Sequence record: MN850576.1
Origin: Escherichia phage ime
Direction: 5' to 3' (one strand)
Length of the DNA: 64,000 nt
The stretch's first letter is position 1. Each line of letters begins with the position of its first letter. The position numbers and the translations under genes were made by a program. The notes below the pieces were generated by a model. The model was not told the origin of the DNA, did not search any database, and worked only from the letters and a program-made list of their open reading frames with translations. Below, piece by piece: positions 2,194 to 58,960 of the stretch.

Positions 2194-2676
2194 TTAAACC
2201 CGGATACCTATTGTATACTCGGTGGATACCAATGTCAAATCTAAATTTAAAATTTCTTGCATCTCATAATATGCGTCCAGGGTTAGATACATTTCCCCAT
2301 CCTTTTCTACATACTTGTCCAAGTGCTTGAGGCATTTCGGATAACTATCAAGTGCAGCTTTCAGGCACTCAAACTCTGTGCTGTTGATGAATCCTTCCAT
2401 CTTGGCTACCCGTTCTGGGGTAATGATAGCACTGTAGTGAGATTTAGCTTCCTGAATGCAATGGGTCCAAGCATCAACCTTCTCTTCGAAAAGTCCAAAG
2501 AACTTCTTTTTGGTGAGCTTCAGATTCTTTAAGTGCTTAAGCACTCGGTTGCCGATTACAGCCACATCACGAAACTTAAGGATCACCTTGTCGATATCCT
2601 CGCGGCCTATTTTCACAAAGCAGGCTTCGCACATTTCAGGGGCTGCGTAACCTACTTTCCACATAAAATCTGACAT
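2194..2676 (-). CDS. Hypothetical protein with Cys motif WKxGYAAPxxCExC
   Basis: 160-aa ORF; N-terminal motif MWKVGYAAPEMCEAC shared with the protein of 21230..21430. Confidence 0.55.
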   Translation of the reverse strand: MSDFMWKVGYAAPEMCEACFVKIGREDIDKVILKFRDVAVIGNRVLKHLKNLKLTKKKFFGLFEEKVDAWTHCIQEAKSHYSAIITPERVAKMEGFINSTEFECLKAALDSYPKCLKHLDKYVEKDGEMYLTLDAYYEMQEILNLDLTLVSTEYTIGIRV

Positions 2677-53812: not shown

Positions 53813-56149
53813 TTACCAAAGGTCGGTAGACATGAAGTTGATATCTTTATTGTTCTCCCACTCAAGTTTTGCATCAAATATTTTGTTAAACTCACCCTCA
53901 TCTATTGAAATCGTGATTTTCCCATCACTGATCTCTAAAGGTAGCATTTCCATAGTTCTTAATTGAGAAGCAAAACCAGGGCCACCCGGCAACGGAAGAG
54001 TCCCGCCAGGTAAGGTGTCCAAAGGATTAACAAACCCGTTACCTCCCGATATGATATCTTTGCGAATCATATCGCTGATAGTATCCAGCTGCTGATTTCT
54101 TTCACTTAGTGGGTTGTAACGGTCATTAAATAATTCCCCGGCGCTTAGTATTGTACCGATAATGCCCAGCTTACCGAGCAGACCAACTTTGCCACCAGGT
54201 GTCTTGAGGCCACCCCCACCTTTTCCTGCCGGAGCTCCACCACCAGATCCTTCTGTAGTAGCGGCACCCGCTGCTCCAGCTGCACCCCTTAGAGAGTTAA
54301 GGAATTTAAAGGTTTTTACAAGCATGGATGCCATGACAAAACCTTTTGTTAGGGCGTTGACTACCAGCATGATGGCAGCAGCAAACCCTGCCCATTTAGC
54401 ATAGCTAAAGGTGTCATGAAGCTCTTCAGAATATTCCTTCGTCTTAGCTGTTATGAATCCCCATTTAATCCCCCATTCAAGGAAAAACATGCGGATCTTG
54501 ACTATAGTGTTGTTTAGTTCACCAACTGCCCAGTTAAGGCCTCTCACAAACCCGCTAACAAAATCACCAGAGGCATCCCACACAAATTGCAGAGTCTCAC
54601 CAGTGCGGATTAGTGTATAATAGAACTCTGTTAGTTCGTCAGACCAACGGGTGAACAGTTTCTGACGAGTCAGTTCGATGAAGGTTTTCAGTCTGTTTTC
54701 TGCCAGCACGTTAGACTTCTGCATTCTTTCATAACCAGCTGCAGATGCCTCGTTCATGTACTTAGCCACATACTTCATGATCTTGGCTGTTTTAACCTCA
54801 CCTTTCTTCATCATGTCCATGAACTGATCCATGGAGAGTTCAGAAAGACCAAAAGCCTCTTTGGTGGCCTTGATAAAAGGTTCGTATGCACCAGGCAATG
54901 CTTCAGCAAGTTGTTGCTTCAGTTCTTCGGACATTACTTGTCCCTTGCCAAGCATCTGTTGGATAGCCATAATACCGCGCTGGTATTTTACCTCATCGGC
55001 ACCATAAGCAGCAGCATACTGTGAGTATGCAGAAAACAGCTCATGCACTTCCTGATTTGTCATCTGGTTTTTGGCGTTTACCGACATCTGGGCGTAACCT
55101 TGAAGACCAGATTTGAGATCAAAACCAAGACGCATAGCCTCTTGCTGGACAAACGCAACCTCACTGTTGGCTTTGTTTGGATCTCCAGTAACAGCAGTAA
55201 GAGCAGCACTTGCCCCCTCCATCATGTGACCGGATCTGTTAACCGCAGCAAATCCAGAAAAAGCCGTATACGCAGCTGTTGCATTAATAACAGATCTACG
55301 TAAGTCTCTCATGGCATCGCCTAGTGTAAGCGTTTGGCTGGTGGCGCTTTTAAATCCAGACTGCAGCGCTGACAAGTGGGCGTTAAATGTTGACTTTTTC
55401 ATCTCCCCACGAGCAAACCTGGACTCTAACTCTGAGTATCCTGGCAAGCTTCCACGGAATCCGGCACCATACTTGGCAGAAAGTCTTATCGCGGAGTTGT
55501 AGAGGTGGGTTCTCCTTGCCTCACGATCCGACATAAGCCTATTATCCATGCCAGCCTTACCGTCCCTTCTTAGCTGTCTATGATAACGATTCATAGCGGC
55601 TGTCTGCGCTTTCACAAGATTAGGGTCGGAAGCCACACCACCCATATTAGGGTTACCGGGGATATATTTGAAAGATTTGGCATTAGCCAGAACTCTTGCC
55701 TTAGGTGCCTTATAACCACCGTAAGACACTGGTGCAGATTTGGCAGCCTTTTTGGCCTCTTTAGCTTGCTGCTGGTAGAACTTACGCATCCTAGCCATTT
55801 CTGGATTTTTAGCGGTAAGATTGCCTACAGCTTGTTTACGTCTCGCATTCTCCCTACGTTCTATTGCAGCTCTTACTGCAGCCTCTTTCTTGGCCTGTGC
55901 TACGCTCTCCCTGTGCAGCTTAGCATTTGCCTGAGATTGCTGTCTGGCAACCCGCTGCATTGTCTGCTGGGTTTTAACAGCTACCGCCTGCCATCTGCTC
56001 ATGGGGTTGGCTGAGTTAAAATCCTCACCTAGTTTCCTGAACTCCCTCCCAATACTGCGAATTTTCTCTACAGCTTTTTTGTAGGAGGAGTTCTCTATCT
56101 CAAAGCCAATCTTGTTGACTGTTGTGGCAACTATTTTGTTTGTAGCCAT
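53813..56149 (-). CDS. Tail tape measure protein
   Basis: 778 aa, A/K/Q/R-rich helical composition; immediately downstream of the frameshifted chaperone pair; SD GAGGAAACC before the ATG. Confidence 0.7.
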   Translation of the reverse strand: MATNKIVATTVNKIGFEIENSSYKKAVEKIRSIGREFRKLGEDFNSANPMSRWQAVAVKTQQTMQRVARQQSQANAKLHRESVAQAKKEAAVRAAIERRENARRKQAVGNLTAKNPEMARMRKFYQQQAKEAKKAAKSAPVSYGGYKAPKARVLANAKSFKYIPGNPNMGGVASDPNLVKAQTAAMNRYHRQLRRDGKAGMDNRLMSDREARRTHLYNSAIRLSAKYGAGFRGSLPGYSELESRFARGEMKKSTFNAHLSALQSGFKSATSQTLTLGDAMRDLRRSVINATAAYTAFSGFAAVNRSGHMMEGASAALTAVTGDPNKANSEVAFVQQEAMRLGFDLKSGLQGYAQMSVNAKNQMTNQEVHELFSAYSQYAAAYGADEVKYQRGIMAIQQMLGKGQVMSEELKQQLAEALPGAYEPFIKATKEAFGLSELSMDQFMDMMKKGEVKTAKIMKYVAKYMNEASAAGYERMQKSNVLAENRLKTFIELTRQKLFTRWSDELTEFYYTLIRTGETLQFVWDASGDFVSGFVRGLNWAVGELNNTIVKIRMFFLEWGIKWGFITAKTKEYSEELHDTFSYAKWAGFAAAIMLVVNALTKGFVMASMLVKTFKFLNSLRGAAGAAGAATTEGSGGGAPAGKGGGGLKTPGGKVGLLGKLGIIGTILSAGELFNDRYNPLSERNQQLDTISDMIRKDIISGGNGFVNPLDTLPGGTLPLPGGPGFASQLRTMEMLPLEISDGKITISIDEGEFNKIFDAKLEWENNKDINFMSTDLW

Positions 56150-56163
56150 GGTTTCCTCATAAT

Positions 56164-56198
56164 AAAAAGGGCCAGATCCCAGAAAAGGAATCCGGCCC
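56164..56198 (-). terminator. Strong hairpin plus U-tract between chaperone and tape-measure genes (attenuator?)
   Basis: Minus-strand GGGCCGGAUUCC-UUUUCU-GGGAUCUGGCCC (12-bp stem, 2 G-U pairs) followed by UUUUUAUUAU, ending about 15 nt before the tape-measure ATG. Confidence 0.5.
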
Positions 56199-56203
56199 TT
56201 AGA

Positions 56204-56568
56204 TTATCCTCTCCTGCGCTTAGCTTTCGCAGCAGCTGCGGCAGCCTTCTGCTCCCGCTCCATTTCCCTGTTTTGGACGGTATCTAGGAATTCTTCGATA
56301 TCAAGATACTCACAGAGCTTCAGAAAATACGCCATATCTGCAAGATTTAGCGATTCAAAATTTTCCCCTTTGAAATTCTTGAGCACCCTGCACCAAAGAA
56401 AGTCGAACCAGTTGAGTGAACTGTTCTTGGCTGCCCACTCACTGGCCCTCACAACAACCTTGCTTATTCCTGCTCTTCCGGAGTCTGATCCAGGTTGTTC
56501 ACCTGCTGAATCATACCCATCTGCTGTAACATCTCCAGAAGGCTTCCTAAACCGTCTTGTGTGAAAAA
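56204..56568 (-). CDS. Tail assembly chaperone -1 frameshift extension (GT-like)
   Basis: The -1 frame relative to 56464..56937 is open from the slippery site 56563-56569 to the stop at 56204; the listed ORF 56204..56452 is the tail of this frame. Confidence 0.6.
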
Positions 56569-56937
56569 ACAGCCGTAGTTAACCTCCAGAACCTTACCTG
56601 CCAGCTTAATCATCTCCAGCAGATGCCCTGCAAACACAACATCTGGGTTAAGCTTATCCACACCATCTACGGTAATATCTTCGAACAAGATTTTAAATAA
56701 CTCTTCAATAGAGCTATCATCAAGTTCTTGGAACAGGTAAGCCAGAGCAGTAGGAAGGACCTCTGCCATATTCTGACCACCAGAGATAATAGATCCACCG
56801 ATAGCACCTAGCGGGACAGCCACAATCTTACCGATTTTAGGCATGTTTTTCATTGCTTTCATCGGTCCCCAGTGGGTGATCACAAAGTTGTGCCCTGCTA
56901 AATCAATCTCTGTTGTAGGTCTAAAGTTTATAGCCAT
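56464..56937 (-). CDS. Tail assembly chaperone (G-like)
   Basis: 157 aa, directly upstream of the tape measure; contains slippery heptamer T-TTT-TTC in the zero frame near its 3' end. Confidence 0.65.
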   Translation of the reverse strand: MAINFRPTTEIDLAGHNFVITHWGPMKAMKNMPKIGKIVAVPLGAIGGSIISGGQNMAEVLPTALAYLFQELDDSSIEELFKILFEDITVDGVDKLNPDVVFAGHLLEMIKLAGKVLEVNYGCFFTQDGLGSLLEMLQQMGMIQQVNNLDQTPEEQE

Positions 56938-56980
56938 TTTATAGCATCCTTATTAGTCATGTTGTGCACCATATTTGTGT

Positions 56981-57009
56981 ATTTTACCATGATTATGGTG
57001 CATTGTCAA
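56981..57009 (-). promoter_or_regulatory. Sigma70-like promoter TTGACA-N17-(TGg)TAAAAT
   Basis: Plus-strand tgtcaa 57004-57009 and atttta 56981-56986 with 17-nt spacer; between the terminator and the chaperone gene. Confidence 0.55.
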
Positions 57010-57050
57010 TTTAACCTTTCAAGCAATTCAAGAACGTGTGTCAAAACCAT

Positions 57051-57083
57051 AAAAGCAAAAAGCCCCACCCGAAGGTGAGGCTT
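57051..57083 (-). terminator. Rho-independent terminator
   Basis: Minus-strand GCCUCACC-UUCG-GGUGGGGC followed by UUUUUGCUUUU, after the stop of 57100..57573. Confidence 0.6.
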
Positions 57084-57099
57084 ATGCTAAAGTGTGCCC

Positions 57100-57573
57100 T
57101 TAGATAATACCTGCAAGACCTGCGAGGCCAGTAAGAGCACCAGTGATGTTATCACGGTTGAGCCATGCATCCAGAATACCGATATCCCAGTCCAGCTGAC
57201 CTACTTCGGTTCCGTAAGTCAGGTCAGGCTGTTTCTGGATCCAACCAATTGTGGAAATACCAGGACCCTGGCTACCTTCCAGCAGAACTGGGAAGAATAC
57301 CAGACCAGTAATCGATGCCTGTTTCTGCCAGTCAGAAAGGTAAGCGTTCCATACAGAAGTGTTCTGCAAAGATACAGTCATAACACCAGATTGGTTACGA
57401 GACAGGGCCGCAGACATTTCGCCATCCACACCAACGTGAGGGTAGATGTTGTCTTCGTTTCTTGAAACAACGATCTTGGTGTCAGCAGCGAAGCCAGTGA
57501 CACGCTGCTGCATCAGGTACAGTTTGACCTTTTTAGGGTCATACGCATAAGGAGTTAAAATTTGAGTTTCCAT
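57100..57573 (-). CDS. Tail tube-like protein (by position)
   Basis: 157 aa between the 458-aa protein and the chaperones. Confidence 0.35.
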   Translation of the reverse strand: METQILTPYAYDPKKVKLYLMQQRVTGFAADTKIVVSRNEDNIYPHVGVDGEMSAALSRNQSGVMTVSLQNTSVWNAYLSDWQKQASITGLVFFPVLLEGSQGPGISTIGWIQKQPDLTYGTEVGQLDWDIGILDAWLNRDNITGALTGLAGLAGII

Positions 57574-57583
57574 CTAGTCTTCC

Positions 57584-58960
57584 TTATTCAGTCATTGCAA
57601 CAGCATTGGTGGATTTAGAACCAACTTTGTCCAGAAGAACGTTGATCCGGATACGAACGAAGTGCAGGGCGTTGTTATACACCAGTTCTACTTTCACACC
57701 TTCCAGAACACGAGCAGCCAACTGATTGGTTGGGATTTCTGCACGTTTAGGAACTGTGATGATCGGGTCGTAGAATACATTATTGTCTTCGTCGAAACCT
57801 GTCAGGATCGCACCATTCTTAATGCCAGTGTTGATTGGGTTGTTCATCAGGACAGACTTGATAACCGGAAGATCATCATCAGACATCTTCATGCTTAAAC
57901 CCATGTTGGAGCGACGATGCATGTACCCAAACATAGATTCTTCAGATCTGAACTTGATCCAGTGTGCAAAACGAATAGCGTCTGCATACTGACCTGAAGC
58001 ACACTTACCTTCCCAGAAAGCGCCAACACCGTTAATCATTCTGTAGAAGTTAACGTGGTTTTCCCAAATAGCCATACGCTGAGTTAAAGTCAGAGACGGT
58101 GCAATCACACCTGGCATCTGTTTTAAGTGCAAGCTGTCGCCGTAAGACGGATCGTTGGATGCCATAGCACCTATGATACCACCCTCCGGGAAGTCCTTAT
58201 CTGCACGAGGATCGTACATGCCGACACTGTCATATTGTGCAGCTTTCAGTTTGGTGGCGATGTTATTATCTTTACCAGTCACATCTTCTGCAGTAGAGTA
58301 GACATGCAGCTTGTAGTTAGCCTGAGCCCACTTAGCACATGCTTCAATGTCGGTGTGGTCTTCATGGCACAGGAAGTACCAATTGTCACGCTCAGCATTG
58401 ATCTTATCAACTACTGTAGAAGGTTTTTCAGCATTGGCGATATTTTTGATTGTATAGTTACCAGTATGGTAACCAACAGTACAGTCACCAGTGATGGTGA
58501 TAACACCATCAGCAGCCTCTACAGTGATATCGTCCAAGTTATCATCTGCTTCGATTTTAGTCTTCATTGACTCTGCAATCTGAGTTGCAGCTGTTCCACC
58601 AGAGATAGGGACTATCAAAGAGGTATTGTAGCTACCTTTTGCAATAGTCATTACGACATCGGTATCAGCTGCGGCAGCAATACCTTTAAAATCTACAGTG
58701 GTCTTTTCTTTGGCCTGTCTGCCGATCATAACGTATTGTGGAGGGAATACACCACCAAAAGCTTTTGCTGCAAACTCATACGCTGCAGAGCCTTGTGCGA
58801 AACCATCTTCCACCATCTGATCCAGCTCTGCATATACGCGAGCTCGCTCAGTAAAGTTGTTGTGGATAGCGATGAACAGGGGAGTTTCGAAACCTACAGT
58901 GTCAATAGGCTGGGTTCCGAGGTTAACTGTAACATCTACCACTTTATCTAAATATGGCAT
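57584..58960 (-). CDS. Tail sheath-like or major tail protein
   Basis: 458 aa, first tail gene after the neck genes; cannot tell sheath from major tail protein without structure or homology search. Confidence 0.4.
   Translation of the reverse strand: MPYLDKVVDVTVNLGTQPIDTVGFETPLFIAIHNNFTERARVYAELDQMVEDGFAQGSAAYEFAAKAFGGVFPPQYVMIGRQAKEKTTVDFKGIAAAADTDVVMTIAKGSYNTSLIVPISGGTAATQIAESMKTKIEADDNLDDITVEAADGVITITGDCTVGYHTGNYTIKNIANAEKPSTVVDKINAERDNWYFLCHEDHTDIEACAKWAQANYKLHVYSTAEDVTGKDNNIATKLKAAQYDSVGMYDPRADKDFPEGGIIGAMASNDPSYGDSLHLKQMPGVIAPSLTLTQRMAIWENHVNFYRMINGVGAFWEGKCASGQYADAIRFAHWIKFRSEESMFGYMHRRSNMGLSMKMSDDDLPVIKSVLMNNPINTGIKNGAILTGFDEDNNVFYDPIITVPKRAEIPTNQLAARVLEGVKVELVYNNALHFVRIRINVLLDKVGSKSTNAVAMTE

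What the first reader, a model, noticed from the sequence alone, without database searches (positions are those of the whole stretch)
56204..56937. Programmed -1 ribosomal frameshift in the tail assembly chaperone genes
The zero frame of 56464..56937 contains the slippery heptamer T-TTT-TTC (plus coordinates 56563-56569, read on the minus strand) about 33 codons before its stop. The -1 frame is open from there, through the GTG of ORF 56204..56452, to the stop at 56204. This predicts a G product of about 157 aa and a GT fusion of about 245 aa, the conserved arrangement upstream of tape-measure genes.
Basis: partly seen in the sequence, partly recalled or inferred. Interest (0 to 1): 0.45.

Follow-up and report, generated by a model that had tools for sequence, protein, structure and literature searches.

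The report
Tail chaperone frameshift, rV5-like phage
This is the usual two-for-one tail-assembly chaperone gene of a long-tailed phage, here an E. coli rV5-like myovirus: a small share of ribosomes probably slip back one base at T-TTT-TTC and make a longer protein. The biology is ordinary and expected, but no database record I inspected for this phage group annotates it.

Summary
The window is an rV5-like Vequintavirus, 100% identical to Escherichia phages nimi and CarlMeissner. Its minus-strand tail module runs sheath, tube, chaperone G (56464-56937, Pfam Phage_TAC_15), a short ORF, then tape measure.

- **Slip site:** G contains exactly one in-frame X_XXY_YYZ heptamer, T_TTT_TTC at 56569-56563 (codons 123-125 of 157).
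- **-1 frame:** It opens three codons upstream of the heptamer and runs 124 codons to the stop at 56206-56204. This predicts G of 157 aa and a G-T fusion of 244 aa.
- **Conservation:** Fourteen of 15 independently sampled relatives (down to about 28% identity) and 34 of 34 analysable IMG/VR loci keep TTTTTTC at the same codon, with synonymous choices frozen. The -1 ORF is 110-141 codons in all of them. The one exception carries lambda's G_GGA_AAG three codons downstream.
- **T part:** It evolves as coding sequence but has no conserved start codon.
- **Known homologue:** Felix-O1-like phage Moogle has a homologous chaperone with the same heptamer, annotated as a joined frameshift CDS.
- **Stimulators:** I found no conserved downstream RNA structure. 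An SD-like GGAGG lies 13 nt upstream.

Verdict: a -1 programmed frameshift of the lambda G/GT type. It is a new, unannotated member of a known kind and is not proven experimentally. Interest is low.

The parts
56464..56937 (-). Tail assembly chaperone gene 'G' (zero-frame product, 157 aa)
   Evidence: ORF and translation. Pfam PF21822 Phage_TAC_15, E 3.3e-23; PHROG 3840 'tail assembly chaperone', E 6.5e-69. AF2 model: residues 8-123 mostly above pLDDT 70 apart from a low-confidence stretch at about 41-60; residues 124-157 below 50.
56563..56569 (-). Slippery heptamer T_TTT_TTC (codons 123-125 of G: TG-T TTT TTC)
   Evidence: Only in-frame XXXYYYZ in G. Kept in 14/15 independently sampled relatives and 34/34 analysable IMG/VR loci. 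In the codon alignment of 12 relatives plus the window, the first Phe is TTT 12/12, the second TTC 12/12, and the preceding codon always ends in T, whereas other conserved Phe codons split 6:6. U_UU.U_UU.C is listed among the efficient E. coli -1 motifs (PMC4066793).
56204..56578 (-). -1 frame open window (124 sense codons plus stop). It is the 'T' extension of the fusion and overlaps G by 115 nt. The predicted fusion CDS is join(56937..56563, 56563..56204), 244 aa
   Evidence: The C-terminal 82 aa match PHROG 10409 (E 1.9e-51, unknown function). Protein conservation is shown. Differences by codon position 1/2/3 are 18/15/56 against a relative whose chaperone is 74% identical. rV5 RefSeq annotates the same ORF as gp050 with a CTG start.
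56204..56452 (-). GTG-initiated 82-aa ORF, as gene callers usually report the T part
   Evidence: The start is not conserved: relatives are called at 43-102 aa with different starts.
56583..56587 (-). Internal Shine-Dalgarno-like GGAGG, 13 nt 5' of the heptamer (candidate stimulator; inferred)
   Evidence: Duplex energy with the 16S 3' end is -10.5 kcal/mol. Only 3% of 25-nt windows in the tail-module mRNA reach -9. An equally strong element at the same spacing occurs in 9 of 18 lineages examined and, by sequence, in Moogle, where GGAGG also lies 13 nt upstream.
56981..57009 (-). Sigma-70-type promoter-like site TTGACA-17-TAAAAT (11/12 match, TG extended -10) upstream of G
   Evidence: Annotated as promoter P51 in rV5 NC_011041.
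57060..57083 (-). Terminator-like hairpin after the tail tube gene
56167..56200 (-). Terminator-like hairpin (14-bp stem plus T run) directly after the T stop and before the tape measure gene
   Evidence: Annotated as a rho-independent terminator in rV5.
53813..56149 (-). Tape measure protein gene (778 aa), the presumed client of the chaperone
   Evidence: Pfam TMP_3, E 1.3e-18; PHROG 5255, E 0.
57100..57573 (-). Tail tube protein gene (157 aa)
   Evidence: Pfam PF11681, PHROG 280. Identified as the tube protein gp52 in rV5 virions (PMC3606486).
57584..58960 (-). Tail sheath gene (458 aa)
   Evidence: PHROG 205 'tail sheath', E 4.5e-118. rV5 gp53.

Best explanation
Genes 56464-56937 and 56204-56452 form one tail assembly chaperone locus of the lambda G/GT type, in an rV5-like E. 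coli myovirus.

- **Main product.** Most ribosomes translate the zero frame and make G (157 aa). G consists of a chaperone domain ending at about residue 123, followed by a 32-residue tail that the model predicts with low confidence.
- **Slip (inferred).** A minority of ribosomes slip while tRNA-Phe occupies both the P site (UUU) and the A site (UUC) on U_UUU_UUC. Both tRNAs re-pair one base upstream on UUU_UUU, so base C56563 is read twice.
- **Fusion product (inferred).** Translation continues in the -1 frame for 119 further residues. The result is GT (244 aa): the same chaperone domain, a variable Gly/Ser-rich linker, and a conserved C-terminal T domain.
- **Function (inferred by analogy with lambda).** The shared G part coats the tape measure protein. 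The T domain of the rarer GT recruits tail tube subunits. The G:GT ratio is set by slip efficiency. Neither protein is expected in the virion.
- **Stimulators.** Slipping probably relies on the intrinsically shifty heptamer, perhaps helped by the SD-like GGAGG 13 nt upstream. It does not appear to use a downstream RNA structure.

Shown here: the sequence anatomy, family membership, and deep conservation of the site and of both reading frames. Inferred: the slip itself, its efficiency, and the roles of G and GT.
For: - **Anatomy:**
- **Context:** sheath-tube-TAC-T-TMP synteny and the Pfam Phage_TAC_15 hit. The synteny is kept in 12 annotated relatives.
- **Site conservation:** TTTTTTC sits at the aligned codon in 11/12 GenBank relatives (28-55% aa identity), 3/3 metagenomic relatives and 34/34 analysable IMG/VR loci. 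A -1 ORF of 110-141 codons is present in every one.
- **Synonymous freezing:** TTT 12/12, TTC 12/12, and the preceding codon is xxT whether it encodes Cys, Pro or Ser. Other conserved Phe codons split 6:6, and the flanking Tyr and Gly codons vary.
- **Heptamer substitution:** Rheinheimera phage Barba5A has G_GGA_AAG three codons downstream instead.
- **T part is coding:** third-position differences are about 3 times first- and second-position differences against close relatives, and the domain aligns well.
- **No own start:** no in-frame start codon precedes the conserved T motif in 9 of 16 lineages. Gene callers report fragments of 43-102 aa. One relative has no T gene called at all.
- **Domain boundary:** the slip site lies where the confidently modelled part of the AF2 model ends.
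- **Annotated homologue:** Moogle's chaperone (E 7e-07) has the same N[YF]G-x-FF motif, the same heptamer and the same GGAGG spacing, and is annotated as a joined frameshift CDS.
- **Related families:** a conserved -1 PRF at a GTTTTT motif has been argued for Vandenendeviridae and Andersonviridae (PMC12846349).
- **Motif efficiency:** U_UU.U_UU.C is among the efficient E. coli motifs (PMC4066793).
Against: - There is no direct evidence for the fusion protein. No paper or database record I inspected reports it for rV5-like phages.
- There is no conserved or significantly stable downstream RNA structure (z = -1.27 and +0.87; no consensus pairs).
- The upstream SD-like element is strong in only about half of the lineages, and it overlaps conserved Leu-Glu-Val codons.
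- The heptamer also encodes a conserved Phe-Phe. Part of its conservation is therefore protein-level, and the IMG/VR set was ascertained with an FF-containing pattern.
- In this particular phage a GTG with a weak AAGG lies 12 nt after the G stop, so separate initiation cannot be excluded from sequence alone.
Confidence: 0.85

Rival explanations
1. T is a separate small protein. It would be made by independent initiation, or by termination-reinitiation, at the GTG at 56452, 12 nt after the G stop. No fusion would be made.
For: The GTG at 56452 has a weak AAGG 5 nt upstream. Most GenBank records and PHROG 10409 treat it as a stand-alone 82-aa ORF.
Against: - The start is not conserved. In 9 of 16 lineages no ATG/GTG/TTG precedes the conserved T motif.
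- Called T ORFs range from 43 to 102 aa, and one relative has none.
- This model does not explain the 115-nt overlap, the -1 frame staying open from the heptamer onward in every lineage, the frozen synonymous sites at the heptamer, or the swap to GGGAAAG.
Confidence: 0.06
2. The same G-T fusion is made, but by transcriptional slippage. RNA polymerase would add one extra U at the T6 run, so a subpopulation of mRNAs carries the fusion in frame.
For: The site is a homopolymeric run of six T. [quoted passage not shown] I know that paper only by its title, as cited.
Against: - From general knowledge, six residues is short for efficient polymerase slippage, which usually needs about 8-9 or more.
- The conserved feature is the full X_XXY_YYZ register, including the xxT third position of the preceding codon and the C at position 7, not merely a T run.
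- Barba5A substitutes GGGAAAG, a ribosomal heptamer with no long homopolymer.
Confidence: 0.05
3. There is no recoding and no function. The long -1 ORF and the heptamer would be by-products of coding constraints on G (a Phe-Phe motif) and of sequence composition.
For: In-frame heptamers are common: 40 of 91 ORFs in the window have one. The heptamer encodes a conserved FF.
Against: - The -1 ORF extends 224-296 nt beyond the G stop in every annotated relative (248-278 nt in the IMG/VR loci), despite saturation at synonymous sites.
- Its sequence shows a clear codon-position signature and 24-70% aa identity across lineages.
- The codon choice at FF is invariant, whereas other conserved Phe codons split 6:6.
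Confidence: 0.02

Closest known systems
Phage lambda gpG/gpGT and the conserved tail-chaperone frameshift of long-tailed dsDNA phages (Levin et al. 1993 and Xu, Hendrix & Duda 2004, as cited in PMC8785237, and PMC10885494; mechanistic details from my own knowledge)
   Same: Two overlapping ORFs lie between the major tail/tube gene and the tape measure gene. [quoted passage not shown] The products are a short major one and a longer minor fusion. No downstream structure is required. One relative here (Barba5A) even uses lambda's G_GGA_AAG.
   Different: The heptamer is T_TTT_TTC rather than G_GGA_AAG. The chaperone belongs to a different Pfam family (Phage_TAC_15) and I found no sequence similarity to lambda G. 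The host phage is a 137-kb contractile-tailed virulent phage. The gene pair appears to have its own promoter and flanking terminators. It has not been tested experimentally.
Citrobacter phage Moogle (Felix-O1-like, Ounavirinae) 'tape measure chaperone', annotated with a translational frameshift (KM236239, CPT_Moogle67/68; PMC4319497)
   Same: The chaperone is homologous (24% identity, pairwise E 7e-07). It shares the LE-x-N[YF]G-x-FF motif, the T_TTT_TTC heptamer at the aligned position, and a GGAGG 13 nt upstream. The -1 tail begins FF-x-x-[RK]-[RH]-F-[RQ]-K-P in both. The locus sits directly upstream of the tape measure gene.
   Different: Moogle's G is 133 aa with only 14 sense codons after the TTC of the heptamer, and its T part is 95 codons. 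In Moogle the frameshift is in the record as a joined CDS. In every Vequintavirinae and Stephanstirmvirinae record I inspected it is not.
Proposed conserved -1 PRF at a GTTTTT motif in the chaperone locus of Vandenendeviridae (Pakpunavirus Adele) and Andersonviridae (PMC12846349, Dec 2025)
   Same: The argument is the same: an uninterrupted -1 frame across divergent genomes, a conserved poly-T motif at the 3' end of TAC-N, and a downstream 'hypothetical protein' that is really the C-terminal domain of the long isoform. That paper shows these families to be structurally related to Vequintavirinae.
   Different: In the passages I read, that paper does not analyse the Vequintavirinae or Stephanstirmvirinae locus. 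In Stephanstirmvirinae the motif here is CCT TTT TTC, without the G.
Phage P2 E/E' tail chaperone frameshift (Christie et al. 2002; recalled from memory, not checked here)
   Same: It is a contractile-tailed phage with a poly-T heptamer (T_TTT_TTG, as I recall) and a -1 shift that yields an extended chaperone upstream of the tape measure gene.
   Different: It belongs to a different protein family and a temperate phage. P2 has experimental support; this locus has none.
E. coli dnaX -1 frameshift (upstream SD-like stimulator; general knowledge and PMC4066793)
   Same: An internal SD-like sequence lies within the 6-17 nt window used by Sharma et al.. Here it is GGAGG at 13 nt.
   Different: dnaX also needs a strong downstream hairpin and produces a shorter product. 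Here I found no hairpin, and the SD-like element is absent from several relatives.

Membership tests
G/GT-type tail assembly chaperone with programmed -1 frameshift (Xu et al. 2004 class) | Locus lies between the major tail (tube) gene and the tape measure gene, on the same strand | tested here: met
   Tube 57100-57573, G 56464-56937, T 56204-56452, TMP 53813-56149, all on the minus strand. Same order in 12 relatives.
G/GT-type tail assembly chaperone with programmed -1 frameshift (Xu et al. 2004 class) | Second ORF is in the -1 frame relative to the first and overlaps its 3' end | tested here: met
   The -1 window 56578-56204 overlaps G by 115 nt. The +1 frame is closed.
G/GT-type tail assembly chaperone with programmed -1 frameshift (Xu et al. 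2004 class) | Canonical X_XXY_YYZ slippery heptamer, in register, inside the overlap | tested here: met
   T_TTT_TTC at 56569-56563 is the only one in G. It is an efficient motif in E. coli (PMC4066793).
G/GT-type tail assembly chaperone with programmed -1 frameshift (Xu et al. 2004 class) | Slip site and two-frame arrangement conserved among diverged relatives, beyond what the protein sequence requires | tested here: met
   14/15 independently sampled relatives and 34/34 analysable IMG/VR loci keep TTTTTTC. One uses GGGAAAG. Synonymous sites are frozen only at the heptamer and in the dual-coded stretch.
G/GT-type tail assembly chaperone with programmed -1 frameshift (Xu et al. 2004 class) | Downstream (T) part is a conserved protein segment without its own conserved initiation site | tested here: met
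   (coding signature). (no conserved start; fragments of 43-102 aa; none called in L053).
G/GT-type tail assembly chaperone with programmed -1 frameshift (Xu et al. 2004 class) | First ORF belongs to a tail assembly chaperone family or fold | tested here: met
   [not shown]
G/GT-type tail assembly chaperone with programmed -1 frameshift (Xu et al. 2004 class) | Both the short product and the fusion are actually made, in a fixed ratio | not testable with these tools
   This needs proteomics, western blotting or a reporter assay. I found no published data.
G/GT-type tail assembly chaperone with programmed -1 frameshift (Xu et al. 2004 class) | Both products are required for tail assembly and absent from virions | not testable with these tools
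   The main text of the rV5 virion proteomics lists gp49, gp52 and gp53 but not gp50 or gp51, and the supplements held as text have no hit. This is weak and only consistent.
dnaX/IS-type stimulated -1 frameshift (upstream SD and/or downstream structure) | SD-like sequence 6-17 nt upstream of the heptamer | tested here: inconclusive
   Present in the window (GGAGG at 13 nt, -10.5 kcal/mol), in 9 of 18 lineages examined, and by sequence in Moogle. It is weak or absent in the others and is confounded by Leu-Glu-Val coding.
dnaX/IS-type stimulated -1 frameshift (upstream SD and/or downstream structure) | Stable, conserved hairpin or pseudoknot 5-9 nt downstream | tested here: not met
   The window fold has z = -1.27 (its stem starts 20 nt downstream) and z = +0.87. 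RNAalifold on 12 lineages gives zero consensus pairs.

The most novel reading that the evidence does not exclude
The frameshift in this clade would be stimulated from upstream only. An internal Shine-Dalgarno-like GGAGG sits at a fixed 13-nt spacing and is shared by rV5-like phages and the distant Felix-O1-like Moogle. It would pair with 16S rRNA and push the ribosome back on U_UUU_UUC, with no downstream structure. Lineages that lost the element would then have lower, or otherwise compensated, GT levels. The nearly invariant GGT TTC nine to twelve nucleotides downstream, and the [RH]-F-[RQ]-K-P junction it encodes in the -1 frame, could be a further sequence-specific or nascent-chain element rather than simple dual coding.
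Probability: 0.3. Interest if true: 0.3.

Novelty: new member of a known kind. Interest (0 to 1): 0.2.

Why it matters
The main value is better annotation. More than 100 sequenced rV5-like phages, and several hundred relatives in Vequintavirinae and Stephanstirmvirinae, include many phage-therapy and biocontrol candidates and BASEL collection members. In every record I inspected, this locus is a 'tail assembly chaperone' plus an unrelated 'hypothetical protein' of arbitrary length. rV5 RefSeq gives that protein a CTG start placed at the slip site.

Recognising one G/GT locus corrects those records. It assigns a function to PHROG 10409, 8811 and 16039. It also gives a concrete target for engineering or for tail-assembly studies: a synonymous knockout of the heptamer.

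The finding further shows that the same slip site, T_TTT_TTC within an N[YF]G-x-FF motif, is shared between rV5-like and Felix-O1-like phages. That points to an ancient, homologous recoding site. It does not change any concept.

Tried and rejected
- **Downstream stimulatory RNA structure.** I folded 93 nt and 60 nt of the window and ran RNAalifold on 12 lineages. Nothing was significant or conserved.
- **Natural in-frame G-T fusions.** I looked for proteins of about 250 aa covering both halves. The word-indexed search gave 73 hits, all 149-159 aa and G-only. The exhaustive HMMER search with the T part returned only short fragments, plus four long repeat proteins that look compositional. This is neutral for the hypothesis.
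- **Solved structures by sequence.** None matched.
- **Prior description for rV5 or Vequintavirus.** I checked the rV5 genome/proteome paper and its supplements, the phiTE cryo-EM paper, the CB7 Certrevirus paper, a 'Vequintavirus + frameshift' full-text search, and the PRFect supplement. None mentions it.
- **Vladimirov et al. 2022 (T4-like chaperones).** I could not read it because it is not held.
- **Length of the -1 window spanning the stop, across all window ORFs, as a null.** I rejected this control. Long windows are simply the next gene in that frame.
- **+1 frameshift.** Rejected, because the +1 frame is open for only 19 codons.
- **Phage-encoded tRNA-Phe.** No tRNA genes were found in this window.
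Full report
**What the window is.** Region 56100-57100 is 100% identical to Escherichia phages nimi (MN850626) and CarlMeissner (MZ501054), and 99.8% identical to rV5 (NC_011041). In all, 121 phage records match at 80% identity or more. The window is therefore an rV5-like Vequintavirus, a virulent 137-kb myovirus of E. coli. The minus strand carries a standard contractile-tail module:

| Gene | Coordinates | Evidence |
|---|---|---|
| Tail sheath | 57584-58960 | PHROG 205 |
| Tail tube | 57100-57573 | PF11681 |
| 157-aa ORF (G) | 56464-56937 | Pfam PF21822 Phage_TAC_15, 83 bits vs cut-off 22; PHROG 3840 'tail assembly chaperone' |
| 82-aa ORF (T) | 56204-56452 | PHROG 10409, function unknown |
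| Tape measure | 53813-56149 | PF20155, PHROG 5255 |

**Checking the observation.** The zero frame of the chaperone gene reads ...AAC TAC GGC TGT TTT TTC ACA....
- T_TTT_TTC occupies 56569-56563 in the X_XXY_YYZ register, at codons 123-125 of 157.
- It is the only such heptamer in the gene.
- The -1 frame has a TAA at 56581-56579, three codons upstream. It is then open for 124 codons, through the GTG at 56452, to the TAA at 56206-56204.
- A -1 slip gives a 244-aa fusion...VLEVNYGCFF|HTRRFRKPSG....
- The +1 frame is closed.

A heptamer alone is unremarkable, since 40 of 91 ORFs of at least 100 aa in the window have one. Only three ORFs have a heptamer whose -1 frame reads past the ORF's own stop. 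One of the other two is antisense to a 1479-aa gene. The other carries TTTAAAT/AAATTTA heptamers, which are not among the motifs listed as most efficient in E. coli, with a 107-nt extension.

**Comparative test.** A tblastn search with G found 490 phage records. I fetched 12 that span the identity range:
- Seunavirus PVP-SE1
- Henunavirus pEa_SNUABM_55
- a Klebsiella phage
- Avunavirus 18-1-2
- W70
- Certrevirus PBES02 and F5M2A
- Phapecoctavirus phAPEC8
- Justusliebigvirus FKP3, and the unclassified Escherichia phage Eryne
- Aeromonas Plateaulakevirus phiA009
- Rheinheimera Barbavirus Barba5A

All have the order sheath, tube, chaperone, short 'hypothetical protein', tape measure. None has a joined CDS.

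Eleven of the 12 have TTTTTTC in register at the aligned codon. All 12 have a -1 ORF of 119-141 codons that starts 1-31 codons before the heptamer and extends 224-296 nt past the G stop. The exception, Barba5A, has lambda's G_GGA_AAG three codons further on.

Three more lineages came from ENA, JGI and Logan assemblies through an unbiased protein search (74%, 49% and 41% identity). They show the same arrangement. So do 34 of 34 analysable IMG/VR loci. That last set was retrieved with a peptide pattern containing FF. It therefore informs only on codon choice, not on whether FF is present.

**Synonymous sites.** The codon alignment covers the window and the 12 GenBank relatives.

| Position | Codon usage |
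|---|---|
| First Phe of the motif | TTT 12/12 |
| Second Phe of the motif | TTC 12/12 |
| Preceding codon | ends in T in all 12, whether Cys (TGT), Pro (CCT) or Ser (AGT) |
| Other two near-invariant Phe (F18, F102) | 6 TTT : 6 TTC |
| Adjacent Tyr | TAC/TAT 8:5 |
| Adjacent Gly | GGC/GGA 9:2 |

A gut relative outside this alignment has Ser TCT as the preceding codon, which again ends in T. This pattern is what selection on the nucleotide heptamer predicts.

**The T part is a real coding segment without its own start.**
- The -1 translations align well. After FF there is a conserved basic junction (R-R-F-R-K/R-P), then a variable Gly/Ser-rich linker, then a conserved C-terminal domain (...KNSSLxW[FY]D[YF]L...L.EYLD[IV][EQ][ED][FY]...).
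- Downstream of the G stop, differences from the window by codon position 1/2/3 are 18/15/56 for the closest relative. Third positions also differ most in all 14 other comparisons, although the excess shrinks in the most distant ones.
- The window's T tail is 24-70% identical in amino acids to the relatives.
- In 9 of 16 lineages no ATG, GTG or TTG lies in frame upstream of the conserved motif.
- An exhaustive HMMER search of 1.84 billion representatives finds the T domain only as fragments of 43-102 aa beginning at different positions.
- In one relative no T gene was called at all, although the -1 ORF and domain are intact.
- I found no natural in-frame G-T fusions. This is neutral for the hypothesis.

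**Where the slip falls in the protein.** An AlphaFold2 model of G has mean pLDDT 65 and pTM 0.60. Confidence is mostly above 70 across residues 8-123, apart from a low-confidence stretch at about 41-60. It is below 50 for residues 124-157, which are exactly the residues after the slip site. G and GT therefore share the whole chaperone domain and differ only in what follows.

**Stimulatory elements.** There is no significant or conserved downstream structure.
- The 93 nt after the heptamer fold with z = -1.27, and the stem starts 20 nt away.
- The first 60 nt fold with z = +0.87.
- RNAalifold on 12 lineages predicts no pairs.

Upstream, GGAGG (56587-56583) lies 13 nt from the heptamer and pairs with the 16S 3' end at -10.5 kcal/mol. 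Only 3% of 25-nt windows in this mRNA reach -9. An equally strong element at the same spacing is present in 9 of 18 lineages, a weaker one in 3, and none in 6. It overlaps conserved Leu-Glu-Val codons, so its role is only a possibility.

Sharma et al. report that U_UU.Y is the second most shift-prone A-site tetramer in E. coli, and that H_HH.U_UU.Y heptamers are among the most efficient. They name U_UU.U_UU.C explicitly, and they searched for SD-like stimulators 6-17 nt upstream (PMC4066793).

**Comparison with known cases.** Xu, Hendrix and Duda (2004) established the G/GT arrangement as conserved in long-tailed phages (cited). The nearest documented relative is Citrobacter phage Moogle (Felix-O1-like). 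[quoted passage not shown]

Moogle's 133-aa chaperone aligns with the window's G (24% identity, E 7e-07). The alignment pairs LEANFGSFF with LEVNYGCFF. The slip site is again AGT TTT TTC with GGAGG 13 nt upstream, and the -1 tail starts FFRGKHFQKP against FFHTRRFRKP.

A December 2025 paper argues from the same kind of evidence for a conserved -1 PRF at a GTTTTT motif in Vandenendeviridae and Andersonviridae. It shows that these families are related to Vequintavirinae, but the passages I read do not treat the Vequintavirinae locus (PMC12846349).

I found no statement of the frameshift for rV5-like phages in any of these sources:
- the rV5 genome and proteome paper, or its supplements;
- the phiTE structure paper;
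- the CB7 paper;
- full-text searches;
- the 15 relevant GenBank and RefSeq records I inspected.

rV5 RefSeq annotates the entire -1 ORF as gp050, a 122-aa 'hypothetical protein'. Its start is a CTG immediately 5' of the T run, and its translation is LFFHTRRFRK....

**Mechanism and confidence.** The best explanation is a -1 programmed ribosomal frameshift (0.85). Tandem slippage of two tRNA-Phe on U_UUU_UUC would yield a major 157-aa G and a minor 244-aa GT. By analogy with lambda, G and GT would coat the tape measure protein and recruit tube subunits.

| Rival | Confidence | Main objection |
|---|---|---|
| Separate initiation of T at the GTG | 0.06 | The start is not conserved |
| Transcriptional slippage at the T6 run | 0.05 | Full heptamer register is conserved; Barba5A uses GGGAAAG |
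| Chance or no function | 0.02 | Contradicted |

The slip itself, its efficiency and the roles of the two proteins are inferred, not shown.

**Verdict.** The locus is an unannotated but entirely expected member of a well-known recoding class, homologous to an already annotated site in Felix-O1-like phages. Its value is mainly for annotation, so interest is low.

Noticed in passing
window 56167-56200, 56981-57009, 57060-57083 (minus strand): The chaperone locus looks like its own transcription unit inside the tail module. A terminator-like hairpin follows the tube gene. A near-consensus extended -10 promoter (TTGACA-17-TG-TAAAAT) precedes G. A 14-bp-stem terminator lies between the T stop and the tape measure start. 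The promoter and the terminator after T are also annotated in rV5. This may help set chaperone levels relative to tube and tape measure.
   Followed up: partly
L001 3105-3473 (rV5 NC_011041 gp050) = window 56204-56572: RefSeq rV5 annotates the whole -1 ORF as a separate 122-aa hypothetical protein. Its start is a CTG placed immediately 5' of the T run, and it overlaps gp051 by 109 nt. This is an annotation artefact of the unrecognised frameshift.
   Followed up: yes
GenBank MG0656xx records (and one search hit lists): About 20 unannotated records named 'Campylobacter phage' (host given as C. jejuni) are 99-100% identical to E. coli rV5-like phages over this locus. They are probably mislabelled or contaminant assemblies.
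   Followed up: no
L051 1-1397 (human gut metagenome contig, relative with 74% identical chaperone): A 512-aa gene with DUF723 hits, possibly homing-endonuclease-like, sits immediately upstream of the chaperone gene, where the tube gene lies in the window.
   Followed up: no
L012 (Rheinheimera phage Barba5A) 1830-1836 and 2132-2770: Barba5A uses G_GGA_AAG instead of T_TTT_TTC. It also has a reverse-oriented 'putative DNA binding protein' gene inserted between the T ORF and the tape measure gene.
   Followed up: partly
window 56535-56552 and aligned positions in relatives: The codons GGT TTC, 9-14 nt downstream of the heptamer, are invariant in 11 of 11 lineages that have Gly-Phe there. They encode a conserved basic junction, [RH]-F-[RQ]-[KR]-P, in the -1 frame, and Moogle also has it (HFQKP). 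This is probably dual-coding constraint, but a role in frameshifting was not excluded.
   Followed up: partly
[not shown]
   Followed up: no
window 2194-2676 (minus strand): This 160-aa ORF has overlapping TTTAAAT/AAATTTA heptamers 18-19 codons before its stop, and their -1 frame reads 107 nt past the stop. The motifs are not among those listed as most efficient in E. coli and the extension is short, so this is probably chance.
   Followed up: no
P0081, P0083, P0084, P0090: Four long proteins (737-1311 aa) match the T domain weakly (E 5e-06 to 9e-04) in several repeated stretches. This is likely compositional or coiled-coil similarity. I did not examine them.
   Followed up: no
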